IMG/VR virus record: IMGVR_UViG_2537562190_000023
DNA length: 20,641 bases
Source of the DNA: a virus
Taxonomy: Duplodnaviria; Heunggongvirae; Uroviricota; Caudoviricetes
Strand: one strand, 5' to 3'
Shown: positions 3,292 to 12,454 of the stretch, piece after piece
Layout: each line of letters opens with the position of its first letter
Numbering within the stretch: position 1 is the stretch's first letter
Program-made: the position numbers and the translations under genes
The notes under the pieces: generated by a model
Seen by the model: the letters and a program-made list of their open reading frames with translations, nothing else
Databases searched by the model: none
Told to the model about the DNA's origin: nothing

Positions 3292-3653
3292 AAATAAAGG
3301 GATAACGATGATAGTTTGAGAAAAACAGAAATAACACTTTTGTGGCAAAGCATGGTGCCGGGTGCCTCCCGGTGAATTCAGTACCAGCACCTGAATCCGC
3401 GATTATCCCATATACCTGGTTGCTGATTGCCCCTCCGCACAGGGGGATTCACCATGCAGTAGTATTTTTAATAAACAGTAAACAAAAAAATCAAGCATTA
3501 TGCAGGCTGTTTCTTTTTATCACCGGCCACAGCAATACCACAATGCCGCAGACCAGCCCCCATCCGCCAGCACCGACATGATTCTGCTGGTGAAATCCAC
3601 CATCACCACCAGAAACAGCAGGAGTGCAGCCACAGCCAGGCGCAGTTTTACCG

Positions 3654-4046
3654 TCACAGGTGATTCTCCAGACGAAGCCCCAGAACACCGGCAATCTCTT
3701 CCAGCACCTTGCGCTCTTCCGGCTCAATTTCGCCGTCTGCCTCCGCAATGGCCACCGCCACATCCAGCACATCTTCCGCTTCACGCGTATCGCGTTTCAC
3801 ATCCTCGATCTCACGTAACGCCGCACGACGACCAATTTTAAAGTTCGTATCCAGCTGACCGATAATGGTTGCGCTAATCGCATTAATTTCTGACGTAAAC
3901 GCGGACAGCGCTGGCTGATTACGCAGTACCTGTTCGATCTTCGCTTTCTAGGAAGCCTCACATTCACCATTTGCACAGGCCACCAGGTATGCGGCGTTAA
4001 TCACCGCCTGTGCCAGATCGCGTTTCTCAAACTTTCCTTTTTCCGG
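3654..4046 (-). pseudogene. TerB-like domain ORF with no start codon and an in-frame amber stop; probable pseudogene
   Basis: Minus-strand frame reads ...KRDLAQAVINAAYLVACANGECEAS*KAKIEQVLRNQPALSAFTSEINAISATIIGQLDTNFKIGRRAALREIEDVKRDTREAEDVLDVAVAIAEADGEIEPEERKVLEEIAGVLGLRLENHL. The TAG is at 3948-3950. No ATG/GTG/TTG lies between the upstream stop (4047-4049) and the TAG. The C-terminal DGEI...EE...L..IA..LGL pattern resembles TerB/DjlA-N-type domains (from memory). Confidence 0.4.
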
Positions 4047-8719: not shown

Positions 8720-8779
8720 ATTATACGCATATTGAAGAGTATAAACCTTACATGTTGATTACATTTTTGTAATCAACAT
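8720..8779 (-). promoter_or_regulatory. Promoter of the binding-protein gene: perfect -10 plus an upstream palindromic operator
   Basis: Minus-strand TATAAT (plus 8720-8725) about 130 nt upstream of the ATG. Inverted repeat ATGTTGATTACA-TTTT-TGTAATCAACAT (12-bp arms, 8752-8779) overlaps the -35 position. Confidence 0.4.
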
Positions 8780-9446
8780 CCTGTTTGGAATAGCCAGCCT
8801 TTAATGGATAACTATTTCTGACAATGCAATGAGTATAATCAAGTCCATCTTCCACTGAGAATTAGAGGCGGCATGCTTTTTCCGACTCTTGCCGGATATC
8901 CGTAATTGTCCATAATCTGCAGATTTATACCTTCAGCATGACCTGCCAGCGAAAATTTGTCCGGTGTTTCTACGGAAATAACATCAAAAGTTACACGCAC
9001 TCGCGTTACCGTGTAGACCTACTTTCCTGCACTTGCAAGATCACAGTGGTGTAACCGTAACAGGAATTTATTCTCTGGACCGGCAGTAAATCCCTGAGTG
9101 GCGTGGTTCCCATATCAATTTCCAGCCAGGCAGCCTCCATTGCCAGCGTACTGGCTGGAGCCATGACCTGCCCTTTAAATCTGGCCCGACCATCCCACCG
9201 GACGTGTTCTTCTCCCCTGAACTTAGGTACAGTCATCTCCAGTGGCACAAAAGTGTCAGCGCCATGATTTTTGACCGTTATCGCGCTACGGATATTTTGT
9301 TGACTGGTGAAAATTACCCCGCAGAATCAGGCTTATTCCCTTAACCCGGGCTTTCATCCTGACCGCCGCCTCACTACGACCAATCAGACTGCCGATGCAT
9401 TTTACCTTCATTGTTAGTATCATAATTTCAGGCCTGCACCATCCGC

Positions 9447-10225: not shown

Positions 10226-10891
10226 TCAGACAAACCCAGCCGCTTTCCGGCGTTCATATTCCTGTTTCAGCAACTCAATTGGCGTTGGTCCCGCAGGACG
10301 TTTGGGTGCTGCCAGTTGTCGCCGGACAGGCGGAACACTCAGGCCGTTGCTAACATGCTTTGCCCATTTCGTCAGCTGCCGTTCTGCAAGCCGTTTTAAC
10401 TCCCCTTCGGTCATCTGGCGTTCAATCCCCTTTGAACGCATCTCGAGGCAAATGTGATACAGCACAGGCTGAGACCACGGGTACTTATCACTTCCGTCGT
10501 ATCGCCAGGACTCATTGCGCCAGCGGCGGTACTCCTCCATCACAGCATCCACCGTCAGACCAAATGGATTGGCCCCGCTTTCCGAAATCAGCGCCACAAA
10601 CTCAGCCAGGTCCGGAGGCCATGTTTCACCCGCCCGGCAGCAGTCCATGCACTGGCGGCAGACCTGCCGGATTTGCTGCTCAGTCATCGCGCCAATCTGT
10701 GCAATCCAGAGCTTCGAAGGTGCGGCCCCGTTCTTCTGGGTCCAGCGGTTCGAATAAACCTCCCCCATGAGCTCCCACAGCTTCCAGGCCGTTTCCGTCG
10801 CTGATAAATCCGTTTTCACGTTCCCACTGCTCACGTGCTGCCCGAATTTCCTGAACTGCCCGTGATGCGGTTCCACCTGGTGCTGCTGCAT
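10226..10891 (-). CDS. Replication protein P-like (DnaB helicase loader)
   Basis: Similarity to lambda P as recalled (YPW motif, ELKRLAERQL, VPPVRRQL blocks). ATG at 10891 has SD AGGGGG, but this start overlaps the 3' end of the initiator gene by about 210 nt. An alternative coupled start at 10687 (ATGACTGA) would give 153 aa. Confidence 0.6.
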   Translation of the reverse strand: MQQHQVEPHHGQFRKFGQHVSSGNVKTDLSATETAWKLWELMGEVYSNRWTQKNGAAPSKLWIAQIGAMTEQQIRQVCRQCMDCCRAGETWPPDLAEFVALISESGANPFGLTVDAVMEEYRRWRNESWRYDGSDKYPWSQPVLYHICLEMRSKGIERQMTEGELKRLAERQLTKWAKHVSNGLSVPPVRRQLAAPKRPAGPTPIELLKQEYERRKAAGFV

Positions 10892-11720
10892 GGTTTACCC
10901 CCTTGCTGACTGGTTTAACCTGCGCCCTGACGTGATTTACGTGACGGGCGAATTTCTGCTCCCACTGAACCTGCGTAAACACTTTCCCCTCCGCTGCCCA
11001 GTAGTCCCGGAATGCGGCAAGTTCAGCAGGTGTGAATTCTGTCTCCGGCAAAGCCATCCCCCACAACGCAGCCCGTCGTCGAAAATCCCGTGACGGATAC
11101 CAGTTATCGGTCATCGGAAATTTTCCGATGGGTTCGCTCAGGCCATCCAGGAATACAGGGGGGACTGCCTGTAACGACAAAACTTCCTGCTCACTGGTCG
11201 GAGCACTCTCGCGTGCGTTATGTGTGGGGTTTAAATCTTTGGGTTCCTTTGGGTTCCGTGATCCGTTTTTGGGTGTCTTTGATGGAAAATTTGGGTGTCT
11301 TTGGTTATTTTCCATGCAGCAAAGAGTTCCGTTTTTGGGGCTGTTTTGTGCTGAAACATAACCGTTTTCGGTTCTGTTTTTATTAACAGTACCAATTTTA
11401 CCTACCTTTAAAGACTCCCGTTTTTGGGTGTATTCATCCTCGGTAACACTTTCTTCAACACCGATAAGTCGGTACACCACAATTTGTTTTGTCCGGCCTT
11501 TTCTCTCACCGGTATCAACAATTAACCCAATCTCCATCAGGTGTCGTAAGCTGTCCTGCACAGTCTTTTTGTTCAGTTCCGTTACTTCTGCCAGTGCAGA
11601 TACAGACGGGTATGCACACAAATCGGCACCGCACATATCAGCAAGCCAGGTCAATACTGACTTACTGGATGAACTGCCGGTTTTCACCTTTTTAGCCCAT
11701 CGTAGCGCATCGATACTCAT
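10680..11720 (-). CDS. Replication initiation protein (lambda O-like): N-terminal HTH, low-complexity linker encoded over the iterons
   Basis: ATG at 11720 (MSIDALRWAKK...). N-terminal HTH typical of phage initiators. The linker NKNRTENGYVSAQNSPKNG... is encoded by the iteron DNA, as in lambda O. The six-frame track's earlier start at 11795 is TTG. Confidence 0.6.
   Translation of the reverse strand: MSIDALRWAKKVKTGSSSSKSVLTWLADMCGADLCAYPSVSALAEVTELNKKTVQDSLRHLMEIGLIVDTGERKGRTKQIVVYRLIGVEESVTEDEYTQKRESLKVGKIGTVNKNRTENGYVSAQNSPKNGTLCCMENNQRHPNFPSKTPKNGSRNPKEPKDLNPTHNARESAPTSEQEVLSLQAVPPVFLDGLSEPIGKFPMTDNWYPSRDFRRRAALWGMALPETEFTPAELAAFRDYWAAEGKVFTQVQWEQKFARHVNHVRAQVKPVSKGVNHAAAPGGTASRAVQEIRAAREQWERENGFISDGNGLEAVGAHGGGLFEPLDPEERGRTFEALDCTDWRDD
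11237..11435. repeat. Iteron array (candidate origin of replication) inside the initiator gene
   Basis: Six or more copies of a TTTGGG core (consensus about CCGTTTTTGGGTGTCTTTG) at 11238, 11248, 11268, 11290, 11334 and 11423, spaced at roughly 10, 20, 22, 44 and 89 bp (near helical-turn multiples). Confidence 0.55.
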
Positions 11721-12243
11721 ACGAACCCCAGACAGATATTTGTTTATCTGCAAAGTAATGTTGGTATTGCTGACGATACGCACGCTTGAAAGCAATAGCT
11801 TTTTCTATAAGTTCGTCAGTCTCACGTTCCACAACAGCTGGATCCGCAAAAAGTAGCCCTGACTCCACCACATCGCCATATTCTTTGTTTAACCCGGCGA
11901 TCATGTACGTAATGCTTTTTCCGTCAGTAATTTCACGATACAACCTGAAATCACTGATCCGGATAGCCGCCATAATTGCCGGAATCAGCGCCGTGAATTT
12001 TTCCCGCTTATCCCTGGTGTCGATAGATTTCCAGCGTTCGAATATCTTCACCCGGTTAACGCCCAGCGCCCGTTGATCAACCGCGCCATCATCAAACGTG
12101 ACGCGTTGAACATCGATGTTCGGGCGTTCTTTCAGAGCCCAGAATGCTTCCGTGATTAATATCGTCGCCTGCTCCTGTGTCATTCCTGGTCGGCATACCC
12201 AGGCATCCAGAGCCTCACAAACCTGTTCAGGGGTGATTTTCAT
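11692..12243 (-). CDS. YdaT-like protein at the cII position, 183 aa (assignment tentative)
   Basis: ATG at 12243 overlaps the 3' end of the Cro-like gene. Position downstream of the Cro/YdaS-like gene matches the cI-YdaS-YdaT modules of Rac and CP-933P. Sequence identity to YdaT was not verified. Confidence 0.45.
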   Translation of the reverse strand: MKITPEQVCEALDAWVCRPGMTQEQATILITEAFWALKERPNIDVQRVTFDDGAVDQRALGVNRVKIFERWKSIDTRDKREKFTALIPAIMAAIRISDFRLYREITDGKSITYMIAGLNKEYGDVVESGLLFADPAVVERETDELIEKAIAFKRAYRQQYQHYFADKQISVWGSYEYRCATMG

Positions 12244-12454
12244 TGTTCAACCGCCCCGCCCGCTTTGCCTTACGATATTCGTCATAAACTTTGGGGTCGT
12301 ACTGAAGTTCCCCGCCGGATGCCTCTTGCAGGCGCATCGCGCGACCTTCAGGAACCAGTTCCCCCCATGCAGCAATGCTTGCCAACCTAACTCCTGCGGC
12401 ATTGGCAAGCTTTGTTTTGCTGCCAAAAAACGCTATAGCATCAATTTTCAACAT
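12227..12454 (-). CDS. Cro-like small HTH regulator (YdaS family-like), 75 aa
   Basis: Divergent from the repressor. SD AGGAG 6 nt upstream of the ATG. HTH pattern KTKLANAAGVRLASIAAW. Confidence 0.6.
   Translation of the reverse strand: MLKIDAIAFFGSKTKLANAAGVRLASIAAWGELVPEGRAMRLQEASGGELQYDPKVYDEYRKAKRAGRLNNENHP

What the first reader, a model, noticed from the sequence alone, without database searches (positions are those of the whole stretch)
10680..10891. About 210-nt overlap between the initiator and P-like genes in different frames
The P-like frame is open back to an ATG at 10891 with a good SD (AGGGGG), and the residues encoded in the overlap loosely resemble the lambda P N-terminus. 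The initiator frame is also open to 10680. Either both frames are used (true overlap), or one has been extended by a frameshift. The alternative coupled P start at 10687 overlaps the initiator stop (ATGACTGA).
Basis: seen in the sequence. Interest (0 to 1): 0.3.

Follow-up and report, generated by a model that had tools for sequence, protein, structure and literature searches.

The report
Initiator and helicase-loader genes truly overlap
In this E. coli prophage, the last 70 codons of the replication-initiator gene and the first 70 codons of the lambda-P-like helicase-loader gene share the same 212 bases in two reading frames; the arrangement is kept from E. coli to Vibrio phages, so current annotations start the loader gene too late, and the two overlapping pieces may work together.

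Summary
On the minus strand the initiator ORF (ATG 11720, TGA 10682-10680) and the P-like ORF (ATG 10891, stop 10226) share 212 nt, with P one base ahead of the initiator frame. It is a real, conserved dual-coding overlap, not a frameshift artefact. In 21 lineages (ten enterobacterial genera and six Vibrio phage types) both frames stay open over 191-242 nt. All 21 keep an ATG at the homologous position, 46-54 codons upstream of the conserved motif; most have a Shine-Dalgarno-like purine run 6-9 nt upstream. Given the P protein, the initiator frame stays open in only 0-9% of synonymous-codon shuffles per lineage. Each frame is more conserved than the other frame alone would impose. Close relatives have half the polymorphism density in the overlap. 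The P-like helicase-loader profile aligns from P residue 19, and invariant residues W39, W50, K53-N54-G55 and W62 lie in the overlap. The 153-aa RefSeq model and the 140-aa model are therefore N-terminally truncated. The initiator tail (helix, Gly-rich linker, acidic motif) always travels with this P N-terminal domain, on at least six initiator architectures. I infer, untested, that the tail docks the loader.

The parts
10680..11720 (-). Replication initiator CDS (346 aa): weak N-terminal HTH_36 match, iteron-bearing linker, DnaT-like domain, C-terminal tail
   Evidence: ORF. Pfam DnaT domain at aa 201-267 (E 2.5e-17) and HTH_36 at aa 36-67 (E 3e-4, below cutoff). NCBIfam DnaT at aa 194-278. 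RefSeq WP_000020574.
10920..11120 (-). DnaT-like DNA-binding domain of the initiator (aa 201-267). Homology to initiators paired with other P types ends just after it, at aa 259-273.
   Evidence: The TL-2011b initiator is 73% identical up to aa 273 and then diverges.
10683..10892 (-). Initiator C-terminal tail (aa 277-346), encoded entirely within the P gene in the other frame
   Evidence: Tail alignment of 21 lineages. Open-frame test. Conservation beyond the constraint imposed by P.
10812..10871 (-). Tail helix (aa 284-303, TASRAVQEIRAAREQWEREN). Here the initiator frame is the more constrained one.
   Evidence: Region A test: initiator-frame z=9.3 against P-frame z=3.1. Synonymous codon identity in the P frame is 0.76 here against 0.45 outside the overlap. 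A single-sequence AF2 model gives a helix at aa 285-303 (weak model).
10683..10757 (-). Acidic C-terminal motif of the tail (aa 322-346, LFEPLDPEERGRTFEALDCTDWRDD). Vibrio phage counterpart: V(D/H)xEE(R/W)xGxxIDxD.
   Evidence: Net charge is more acidic than the shuffle null in most lineages. Sum-of-pairs z=3.5 over 7 deep lineages.
10898..10904 (-). Shine-Dalgarno sequence (AAGGGGG) for the long P start. It is read as Lys-Gly(-Val) codons in the initiator frame.
   Evidence: GGAGG/GGGGG/AGGTG-type runs lie 6-9 nt before the homologous ATG in most of the 21 lineages; a few have only weak ones.
10226..10891 (-). Full-length P-like helicase-loader CDS (221 aa)
   Evidence: ORF. PF06992 E 1.6e-16. 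phrog_109 E 1.8e-62 covering residues 19-220. Lambda P in the PDB aligns at residues 84-194. 221-223-aa forms exist in public protein sets.
10691..10810 (-). P N-terminal helices (aa 28-67) carrying invariant W39, W50, K53, N54, G55, P58 and W62, encoded inside the overlap
   Evidence: Alignment A2. AF2 helices 28-54 and 60-67. P-frame z=13.5-16.3 beyond the initiator-frame constraint.
10680..10891 (-). The 212-nt dual-coding overlap
10685..10687 (-). Downstream in-frame ATG (Met69 of long P) within ATGACTGA. It is the RefSeq start of the 153-aa model and is not conserved across the family.
   Evidence: Position 69 is Leu in many homologues.
11238..11428 (-). Iteron-like direct repeats in the initiator linker: a putative origin that would be served by this initiator-loader pair
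   Evidence: three CCGTTTTTGGG-type 19-mers and three TTTGGGTGTCTTTG 14-mers. Function is inferred by analogy with lambda ori inside O.

Best explanation
Shown by comparative sequence analysis: bases 10680-10891 are translated in two frames. Ribosomes reading the initiator continue past its DnaT-like domain through a 70-residue tail and stop at TGA 10680. The tail has a helix at aa 284-303, a Gly-rich linker and an acidic motif at aa 322-346. Other ribosomes start independently at the SD-ATG at 10891, inside that tail-coding region, one base out of frame. They make a 221-aa lambda-P-like helicase loader. Its first ~27 residues are variable and disordered. Its residues 28-100 form the most conserved, helical N-terminal domain of this subfamily. 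The overlap is partitioned. In the first ~30 P codons the initiator frame carries most of the constraint. In the next ~40 the P frame does, with weaker but detectable constraint on the acidic initiator motif. The annotated 153-aa and 140-aa P models are truncated. Inferred, not shown: the tail is the element through which the origin-bound initiator recruits its cognate loader (with DnaB), as the lambda O C-terminal domain is proposed to do with lambda P domain I. Because tail and P N-terminal domain share the same DNA, they are inherited as one cassette. That cassette has been joined by recombination to many different origin-binding initiator bodies.
For: Anatomy.
Conservation of the arrangement: 21 lineages from Escherichia, Citrobacter, Enterobacter, Klebsiella, Salmonella, Phytobacter, Pluralibacter, Buttiauxella, Dryocola, Samsonia and six Vibrio phage types keep a 191-242-nt overlap. 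All share the same frame relation and an ATG 46-54 codons upstream of the W..KNG motif; most have an SD-like purine run 6-9 nt upstream of it.
Open-frame test: the probability that the initiator frame stays open given the P protein is 0.000-0.09 per lineage.
P frame: conserved far beyond what the initiator frame imposes, z=4.6-6.9 for every deep pair and z=16.3 for 7 lineages jointly.
Initiator frame: conserved beyond what P imposes. z=9.3 in the helix region. z=3.5 in the motif region across 7 deep lineages, where 4 of 2000 shuffles reach the observed score. The tail is also more acidic than the null.
Polymorphism among 37 close haplotypes: 10.4 variant alleles per 100 nt in the overlap against 20.3 and 19.6 in the flanking single-coding parts, Fisher p=9e-4.
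Long P: phrog_109 aligns residues 19-220 to profile positions 22-235 of 236. phiV10 P aligns from residue 18. Invariant residues lie in the overlap. AF2 predicts helices 28-54 and 60-67. The only significant fold matches are lambda P chains in DnaB-P complexes, over 222 columns.
Modularity: homologous initiators paired with lambda-type P lose similarity at aa 259-273 and lack the tail. The tail+P cassette sits on HTH_36+DnaT, DUF1376+DnaT, unknown+DnaT, DUF1376-only, HTH_36/DnaD_N and DUF6291 initiators. In Vibrio phages only the P N-terminal ~135 residues match the P-like profile while the C-terminal half differs, yet tail and overlap persist.
Lambda precedent: P domain I is proposed to engage the O-ori complex, and O-CTD is the partner used in structural work (PMC12661323).
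Against: There is no expression evidence for either product (no proteomics or ribosome profiling available here). Constraint on the initiator frame in the second half of the overlap is modest: pairwise z ranges from -0.8 to 3.9. The shuffle null assumes independent synonymous sites, which does not fully hold among the enterobacterial lineages. P-frame synonymous-site conservation in residues 31-70 is barely raised (0.50 against 0.45). The AF2 model of the P N-terminal domain has only moderate confidence (pLDDT 55-73), and the Foldseek TM-score to lambda P is low (0.34). The tail-P binding step is pure inference. One Vibrio phage (Baybae) has a shorter overlap and lacks the tail motif.
Confidence: 0.8

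Rival explanations
1. The RefSeq model is right. P starts at ATG 10687, translationally coupled to the initiator stop (ATGACTGA, 8-nt overlap). The upstream part of the P frame is an untranslated by-product of the initiator tail sequence.
For: RefSeq/PGAP annotates the 153-aa form, and so does the Rac-SA53 record. The ATGACTGA arrangement is a classical coupling signal. Lambda P itself aligns only from residue 84.
Against: P-frame conservation upstream of Met69 exceeds what the initiator frame imposes by z=13-16. Invariant W39/W50/K53/N54/G55/P58/W62 lie upstream. Met69 is Leu in many Enterobacterales and in Vibrio phages. No SD precedes 10687. The upstream ATG is conserved in all 21 lineages, most with an SD-like run upstream. 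phrog_109 aligns from residue 19.
Confidence: 0.04
2. Both a long (221-aa) and a short (153-aa) P isoform are made in E. coli. The short one would arise by reinitiation of ribosomes terminating at the initiator stop, giving a loader that lacks the N-terminal domain.
For: ATG 10687 lies 5 nt upstream of the initiator stop. Met69 is kept in the closest relatives. In-frame isoform pairs are common in phages (general knowledge).
Against: Met69 is not conserved across the family, so any short isoform is lineage-specific at best. The ATG can be explained as a by-product of the initiator's terminal Asp-Asp codons GAT-GAC. No data bear on it directly.
Confidence: 0.12
3. The initiator tail is non-functional read-through. 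A lost stop codon or an old frameshift let the initiator run into the P gene until the next chance stop. Only P is under selection there.
For: Initiators paired with lambda-type P end right after the DnaT domain. Initiator-frame constraint in the second half of the overlap is modest. An alternate frame open for 70 codons occurs in about 2% of shuffles for this window.
Against: The frame stays open in 21 lineages that are saturated at synonymous sites. Per-lineage probabilities are 0-0.09, so the joint probability is vanishing. The stop falls within P codons ~64-76 in all lineages. The helix region is better conserved in the initiator frame than in the P frame: aa identity 0.38 against 0.26, z=9.3. 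A recognisable acidic motif is shared between E. coli and Vibrio phages. Polymorphism in the overlap is halved, and changes that are non-synonymous in only one frame are about equally rare in both.
Confidence: 0.04
4. The overlap serves programmed ribosomal frameshifting, producing an initiator-P fusion protein.
For: Two long frames overlap. PHROG phrog_15931 behaves like a fused initiator-P profile.
Against: There is no slippery X_XXY_YYZ heptamer or homopolymer run in the window's overlap, and none is conserved elsewhere. A -1 slip from the initiator frame would not reach the P frame, because P is +1. There is no significant RNA structure near the P start. P has its own conserved ATG, with an SD-like run upstream in most lineages. 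The fused database entries are best explained by indels such as the one in Leclercia L105.
Confidence: 0.02

Closest known systems
Phage lambda O-P replication module (initiator O, helicase loader P)
   Same: Same gene order: initiator then loader. The loader belongs to the same family (PF06992, phrog_109) and is co-linear with lambda P. A putative origin with iterons lies inside the initiator gene. In lambda, the initiator C-terminal part and loader N-terminal domain I are the proposed contact (PMC12661323).
   Different: Lambda O and P overlap by only 4 nt. The initiator here is unrelated to lambda O: a weak, sub-threshold HTH_36 match plus a DnaT-like domain. Here the presumed contact elements are encoded in the same 212 nt in two frames. 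The N-terminal domain is too diverged to align with lambda P directly.
DnaT-domain initiator plus lambda-type P modules of phiV10 / epsilon15 / TL-2011b-like phages
   Same: The initiator has a DnaT-like domain (73% identical to TL-2011b through aa 273). It is followed by a P-family loader whose full length aligns with the 221-aa protein from residue 18.
   Different: Those initiators end 0-25 residues after the DnaT domain with an unrelated short tail (for example ...HWNSPEAWEDFL in phiV10). Their overlap with P is only 4-29 nt. They have no 70-aa tail and no dual coding.
Classical out-of-frame overlapping phage genes (phiX174 A/B/K and D/E; lambda Rz/Rz1)
   Same: Two proteins are read from one DNA stretch in different frames on the same strand. 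The ordered part of one protein tends to overlie a disordered or low-complexity part of the other. Nucleotide variability is reduced. The general properties are from my own knowledge and the reviews listed (PMC8227390, PMC6195259), whose text I did not read.
   Different: This is a terminal overlap between two consecutive genes of the same pathway in large temperate dsDNA phages, not an embedded gene in a tiny genome. I found no description of it in the searchable literature.
E. coli primosomal protein DnaT
   Same: Initiator residues 194-278 match DnaT positions 82-166 of 179.
   Different: The score is far below the equivalog cutoff (94.5 against 201 bits). The initiator has an extra N-terminal region with only a weak, sub-threshold HTH_36 match, an iteron-encoded linker and the 70-aa tail. 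It is a phage initiator, not DnaT.

Membership tests
Lambda-P-like helicase loader (Pfam PF06992 / PHROG phrog_109) | Significant match to the family profiles | tested here: met
   PF06992 E 1.6e-16, 60.9 bits against a cutoff of 26. phrog_109 E 1.8e-62. Lambda P PDB chains E 6e-4. hhalign probability 91.6%.
Lambda-P-like helicase loader (Pfam PF06992 / PHROG phrog_109) | Full-length co-linearity including the N-terminal domain I region | tested here: met
   phrog_109 profile positions 22-235 of 236 align with residues 19-220 of the 221-aa form. phiV10 P aligns from residue 18. Foldseek aligns 222 columns to lambda P chain 9oa1_Z. Lambda P alone aligns only from residue 84.
Lambda-P-like helicase loader (Pfam PF06992 / PHROG phrog_109) | Fold resembling solved lambda P | tested here: inconclusive
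   The only significant hits are lambda P chains (E 3e-4). TM-score is 0.34 and model pLDDT is 67.
Lambda-P-like helicase loader (Pfam PF06992 / PHROG phrog_109) | Binds and loads the host DnaB helicase | not testable with these tools
   Biochemical property; no test was possible.
Same-strand out-of-frame overlapping (dual-coding) gene pair | Both frames remain open across diverged lineages more than chance allows | tested here: met
   21 lineages. Shuffle probability 0.000-0.09 per lineage.
Same-strand out-of-frame overlapping (dual-coding) gene pair | Each frame is conserved beyond the constraint imposed by the other | tested here: met
   P frame z=13.5-16.3. Initiator frame z=9.3 (helix) and 3.5-5.4 (motif). 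Caveat: the null assumes independent synonymous sites.
Same-strand out-of-frame overlapping (dual-coding) gene pair | Reduced nucleotide or synonymous variability inside the overlap | tested here: met
   Variant density is 10.4 against about 20 per 100 nt, p=9e-4. P-frame synonymous identity is 0.76 in codons 1-30 but only 0.50 against 0.45 in codons 31-70.
Same-strand out-of-frame overlapping (dual-coding) gene pair | Both products demonstrably translated | not testable with these tools
   No proteomic or ribosome-profiling data are available here. The upstream ATG is conserved in all 21 lineages, most with an SD-like run upstream; this is only indirect support.
DnaT-domain phage replication initiators ('primosomal protein I'-like) | DnaT DNA-binding domain | tested here: met
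   PF17948 E 2.5e-17. NCBIfam DnaT E 5.5e-27, below the equivalog cutoff. phrog_1032/3992.
DnaT-domain phage replication initiators ('primosomal protein I'-like) | Origin iterons bound by the protein | tested here: inconclusive
   Two families of three direct repeats lie in the linker-coding region. Binding was not tested.
Programmed ribosomal frameshift site | Conserved slippery sequence, with a stimulatory structure, leading into the second frame | tested here: not met
   No heptamer or homopolymer run in the window, and none conserved elsewhere. A -1 slip would enter the wrong frame. No significant RNA structure near the P start.

The most novel reading that the evidence does not exclude
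The initiator tail is an overprinted docking peptide for the P N-terminal domain whose codons it shares. Tail and loader N-terminal domain would then form a self-contained 'adaptor + loader' cassette. Physical overlap makes recombination unable to separate the two binding partners. This would let the cassette be grafted onto any origin-binding protein (HTH_36/DnaT, DUF1376, DUF6291, DnaD_N-like) and, in Vibrio phages, be combined with a different loader C-terminal domain. The overlap would be a genetic device that enforces co-inheritance of an interacting pair in mosaic phage genomes.
Probability: 0.35. Interest if true: 0.65.

Novelty: new variant of a known kind. Interest (0 to 1): 0.5.

Why it matters
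Practical: the module occurs in 1257 of 5426 complete E. coli genomes and in many Enterobacterales and Vibrio phages. Its loader gene is annotated with four different lengths (221-223, about 180, 153 and 140 aa). The prevailing RefSeq model lacks the most conserved domain of the protein.

Biological: this is a clear case of a long same-strand overlap in temperate dsDNA phages, maintained over large evolutionary distances with selection visible in both frames. It joins the two proteins that must meet at the origin. If the tail is the loader-docking element, the overlap would explain how mosaic phages swap initiator specificity without breaking initiator-loader compatibility. It would also give a short, testable peptide-domain pair for studying how non-lambda initiators recruit P-type loaders.

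Tried and rejected
The tail-P interaction therefore remains untested.
2. A protein-database search with the 79-aa tail alone returned only near-identical E. coli fragments, so it gave no extra depth for the tail.
3. A profile of 21 tails against PDB sequences gave nothing below E=0.17. NCBIfam has no model for the tail or for P.
4. Direct comparison with lambda P (phmmer and hhalign) aligns only from residue 84-86. The N-terminal relationship had to be shown through phrog_109, phiV10 P and Pfam.
5. The IMG/VR scan returned only 96-100% identical loci. These were useless for deep comparison but served for the polymorphism test.
6. RNA folding around the P start gave z=-0.16, so there is no evidence for structure-mediated coupling.
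7. A slippery-site scan found nothing conserved, so programmed frameshifting was rejected.
8. Five literature searches and a check of the E. coli out-of-frame remodelling paper found no description of this overlap. The library covers open-access papers only.
9. The single-sequence AF2 model of the DnaT domain plus tail has low confidence. I used it only for the helix/disorder pattern.

Full report
**Context**

The window is identical to part of a lambdoid prophage next to rspB in E. coli O103:H2 strain 12009. The early-right operon lies on the minus strand. In order, it encodes:
- a Cro/CI-type regulator
- a YdaT-family protein
- a 346-aa initiator
- a P-family protein
- a DUF1627 protein

Pfam gives the initiator a weak HTH_36 match and a clear DnaT DNA-binding domain at aa 201-267. 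The next ORF matches PF06992, lambda replication protein P.

**The observation**

- The initiator frame ends at TGA 10682-10680.
- The P frame is open to an ATG at 10891-10889, the first start after an in-frame TAA. AAGGGGG lies 6 nt upstream.
- The two ORFs share 212 nt. P is one base ahead of the initiator frame.
- A second ATG at 10687 sits in ATGACTGA across the initiator stop.

Public annotations disagree on the P start. RefSeq and the Rac-SA53 record start P at 10687, giving 153 aa. The PPompW phage records start later still, giving 140 aa. Protein databases also hold 221-223-aa and about 180-aa versions.

**Is the long P frame coding?**

- A tblastn search with the 221-aa protein finds distant relatives whose alignments run into the first 68 residues. 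Citrobacter phage Chris1 covers residues 2-221, many Vibrio phages cover 1-132 or 38-102, and phiV10 covers 18-221.
- In 27 long-form homologues, W39, W50, K53, N54, G55, P58 and W62 are invariant. All are encoded in the overlap.
- Residues 35-100 are the best-conserved part of the protein between E. coli and Vibrio phages.
- The PHROG profile for P-like helicase loaders aligns residues 19-220 to profile positions 22-235 of 236, with E 1.8e-62.
- AF2 predicts a disordered stretch at 1-27 followed by helices 28-54 and 60-67. The only significant fold matches are lambda P chains in DnaB-P complexes.
- Lambda P itself aligns only from residue 84-86.
- Met69, the RefSeq start, is Leu in many Enterobacterales and in Vibrio phages.
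- All 21 lineages keep an ATG 46-54 codons upstream of the W..KNG motif. Most have a GGAGG/GGGGG/AGGTG-type run 6-9 nt upstream; a few have only weak ones.

**Is the initiator tail coding?**

Distant initiators that are paired with other P types align only to aa 259-273. The TL-2011b initiator is 73% identical up to aa 273 and then diverges. On that evidence alone, the tail could be read-through junk.

However, every locus with this P subtype keeps the initiator frame open through the overlap, and the stop falls in all lineages within a narrow stretch of P (codons ~64-76). The tails share three elements even between E. coli and Vibrio phages:
- a helix (TASRAVQEIRAARE... in E. coli, LSAAQAAIAAARQERD in Vibrio phages)
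- a Gly-rich linker
- an acidic motif (LFEPLDPEERGRTFEALD in E. coli, VLHGQVHQEERGGSFIDLD in Vibrio phages)

**Statistics**

I resampled synonymous codons in one frame and scored the other frame.

| Test | Result |
|---|---|
| Initiator frame stays open, given the P protein | 0.0-9% of shuffles per lineage; 2.1% for this window |
| P-frame similarity beyond the initiator-frame constraint | z=4.6-6.9 for all 21 deep pairs; z=16.3 jointly |
| Initiator-frame similarity beyond the P-frame constraint, helix region | z=9.3 (P frame there: z=3.1) |
| Initiator-frame similarity, acidic-motif region, 5 enterobacterial lineages | z=5.4 |
| Initiator-frame similarity, acidic-motif region, 7 deep lineages (conditioned on an open frame) | z=3.5; 4 of 2000 shuffles reach it |

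Tails are also more acidic than the null expects.

The overlap is therefore partitioned:
- In P codons 1-30, aa identity is 0.38 in the initiator frame and 0.26 in the P frame. P-frame synonymous codon identity there is 0.76.
- In P codons 31-70, P identity is 0.63 and initiator identity is 0.40.

Among 37 haplotypes of close relatives, variant density is 10.4 per 100 nt in the overlap. It is 20.3 and 19.6 per 100 nt in the flanking single-coding parts (p=9e-4). Substitutions that change only one frame are equally frequent for the two frames.

The main caveat is that the shuffle null treats lineages as independent at synonymous sites. That is reasonable for E. coli against Vibrio phage comparisons, but optimistic within the Enterobacterales.

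**Alternatives**

- A frameshift artefact is excluded by the conservation above. One locus (Leclercia NCTC13032) does carry a frame-swapping indel and shows what such an artefact looks like.
- Programmed frameshifting is not supported. There is no conserved slippery site, a -1 slip would enter the wrong frame, and there is no significant RNA structure near the P start.
- A short P isoform made by reinitiation at 10687 cannot be excluded in E. coli. It cannot be the family's main product.

**What it most likely does**

The tail+P unit is attached to at least six initiator architectures:
- HTH_36+DnaT
- DUF1376+DnaT
- unknown+DnaT
- DUF1376 alone
- HTH_36/DnaD_N-like
- DUF6291

In Vibrio phages only the N-terminal ~135 residues of the "P" protein match the P-like profile. 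The C-terminal half belongs to other families, yet the tail and the overlap persist. Phages with a lambda-type P N-terminus have initiators with a different, short tail and a 4-29-nt overlap. The conserved unit is therefore "initiator tail + loader N-terminal domain".

In lambda, P domain I is proposed to contact the O-ori complex, and O-CTD is the construct used for structural work (PMC12661323). I infer that the tail is the loader-docking element of these initiators. I also infer that the overlap locks the two partners into one recombination unit. This step is inference only. A low-confidence single-sequence model shows the tail as a helix (aa 285-303) followed by flexible, unstructured sequence. 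That pattern is compatible with a linear docking motif.

**Novelty**

Overlapping phage genes and lambda-type initiator-loader modules are both well known. I found no description of this particular conserved 200-nt overlap, or of its consequence for P annotation, in five literature searches. I rate it a new variant of a known kind, of moderate interest.

Noticed in passing
window 11238-11428 (minus-strand initiator linker, aa ~98-161): There are two families of three direct repeats: CCGTTTTTGGG-type 19-mers at 11255, 11321 and 11410, and TTTGGGTGTCTTTG at 11238, 11268 and 11290. They encode the repeated PKNG/TPKNG peptides and look like origin iterons placed inside the initiator gene, as in lambda O.
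   Followed up: partly
L105 (Leclercia adecarboxylata NCTC13032) ~2500-2690: An indel inside the overlap swaps frames, so the P N-terminus continues into the initiator's acidic tail (…AWHLWQVMGGNILEPVDAEEWGRTFGALDSPDRFDD*). This is either a pseudogene or a long-read assembly error.
   Followed up: no
PHROG phrog_15931 versus window 10226-11240: One 482-position PHROG profile matches both the initiator (aa 161-345 to profile 163-347) and P (aa 18-221 to profile 271-482). It appears to be built from fused or frameshifted initiator-P ORFs and is a database artefact caused by this overlap.
   Followed up: no
L005, L006, L108 (Vibrio phages D67, D173, 1.211.A), P-like genes: Their 'P-like' proteins match the P-like loader profile only over the first ~105-135 residues. 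The C-terminal halves belong to PHROGs of unknown function (32663, 25641), and Pfam PF06992 does not hit them. They may be loaders with a different helicase-binding domain.
   Followed up: partly
window 11692-11720: The YdaT-family ORF (11692-12243) overlaps the initiator start (ATG 11720) by 29 nt. The Cro-like gene (12227-12454) overlaps the ydaT-like gene by 17 nt. The whole early-right operon is tightly packed.
   Followed up: no
public annotations of window 10226-10891: The same gene is annotated with at least four lengths: 221-223, about 180 (start at Met42), 153 (Met69) and 140 aa. The variation runs across RefSeq, GenBank phage records and metagenome gene calls, and the module is present in 1257 of 5426 complete E. 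coli genomes.
   Followed up: yes
L109 (Vibrio phage Baybae) 1693-1844: This divergent homologue of the P N-terminal domain has a shorter overlap with its upstream gene (about 110-150 nt), and the upstream protein's tail lacks the acidic motif. It may be an intermediate or degenerate state of the arrangement.
   Followed up: no
window 8748-9281 and 3653-4015: RefSeq marks a frameshifted fimbrial-protein pseudogene and a TerB-family pseudogene with an internal stop in this prophage, next to the paa adhesin and hokD. The prophage carries decayed cargo although its replication module is intact.
   Followed up: no
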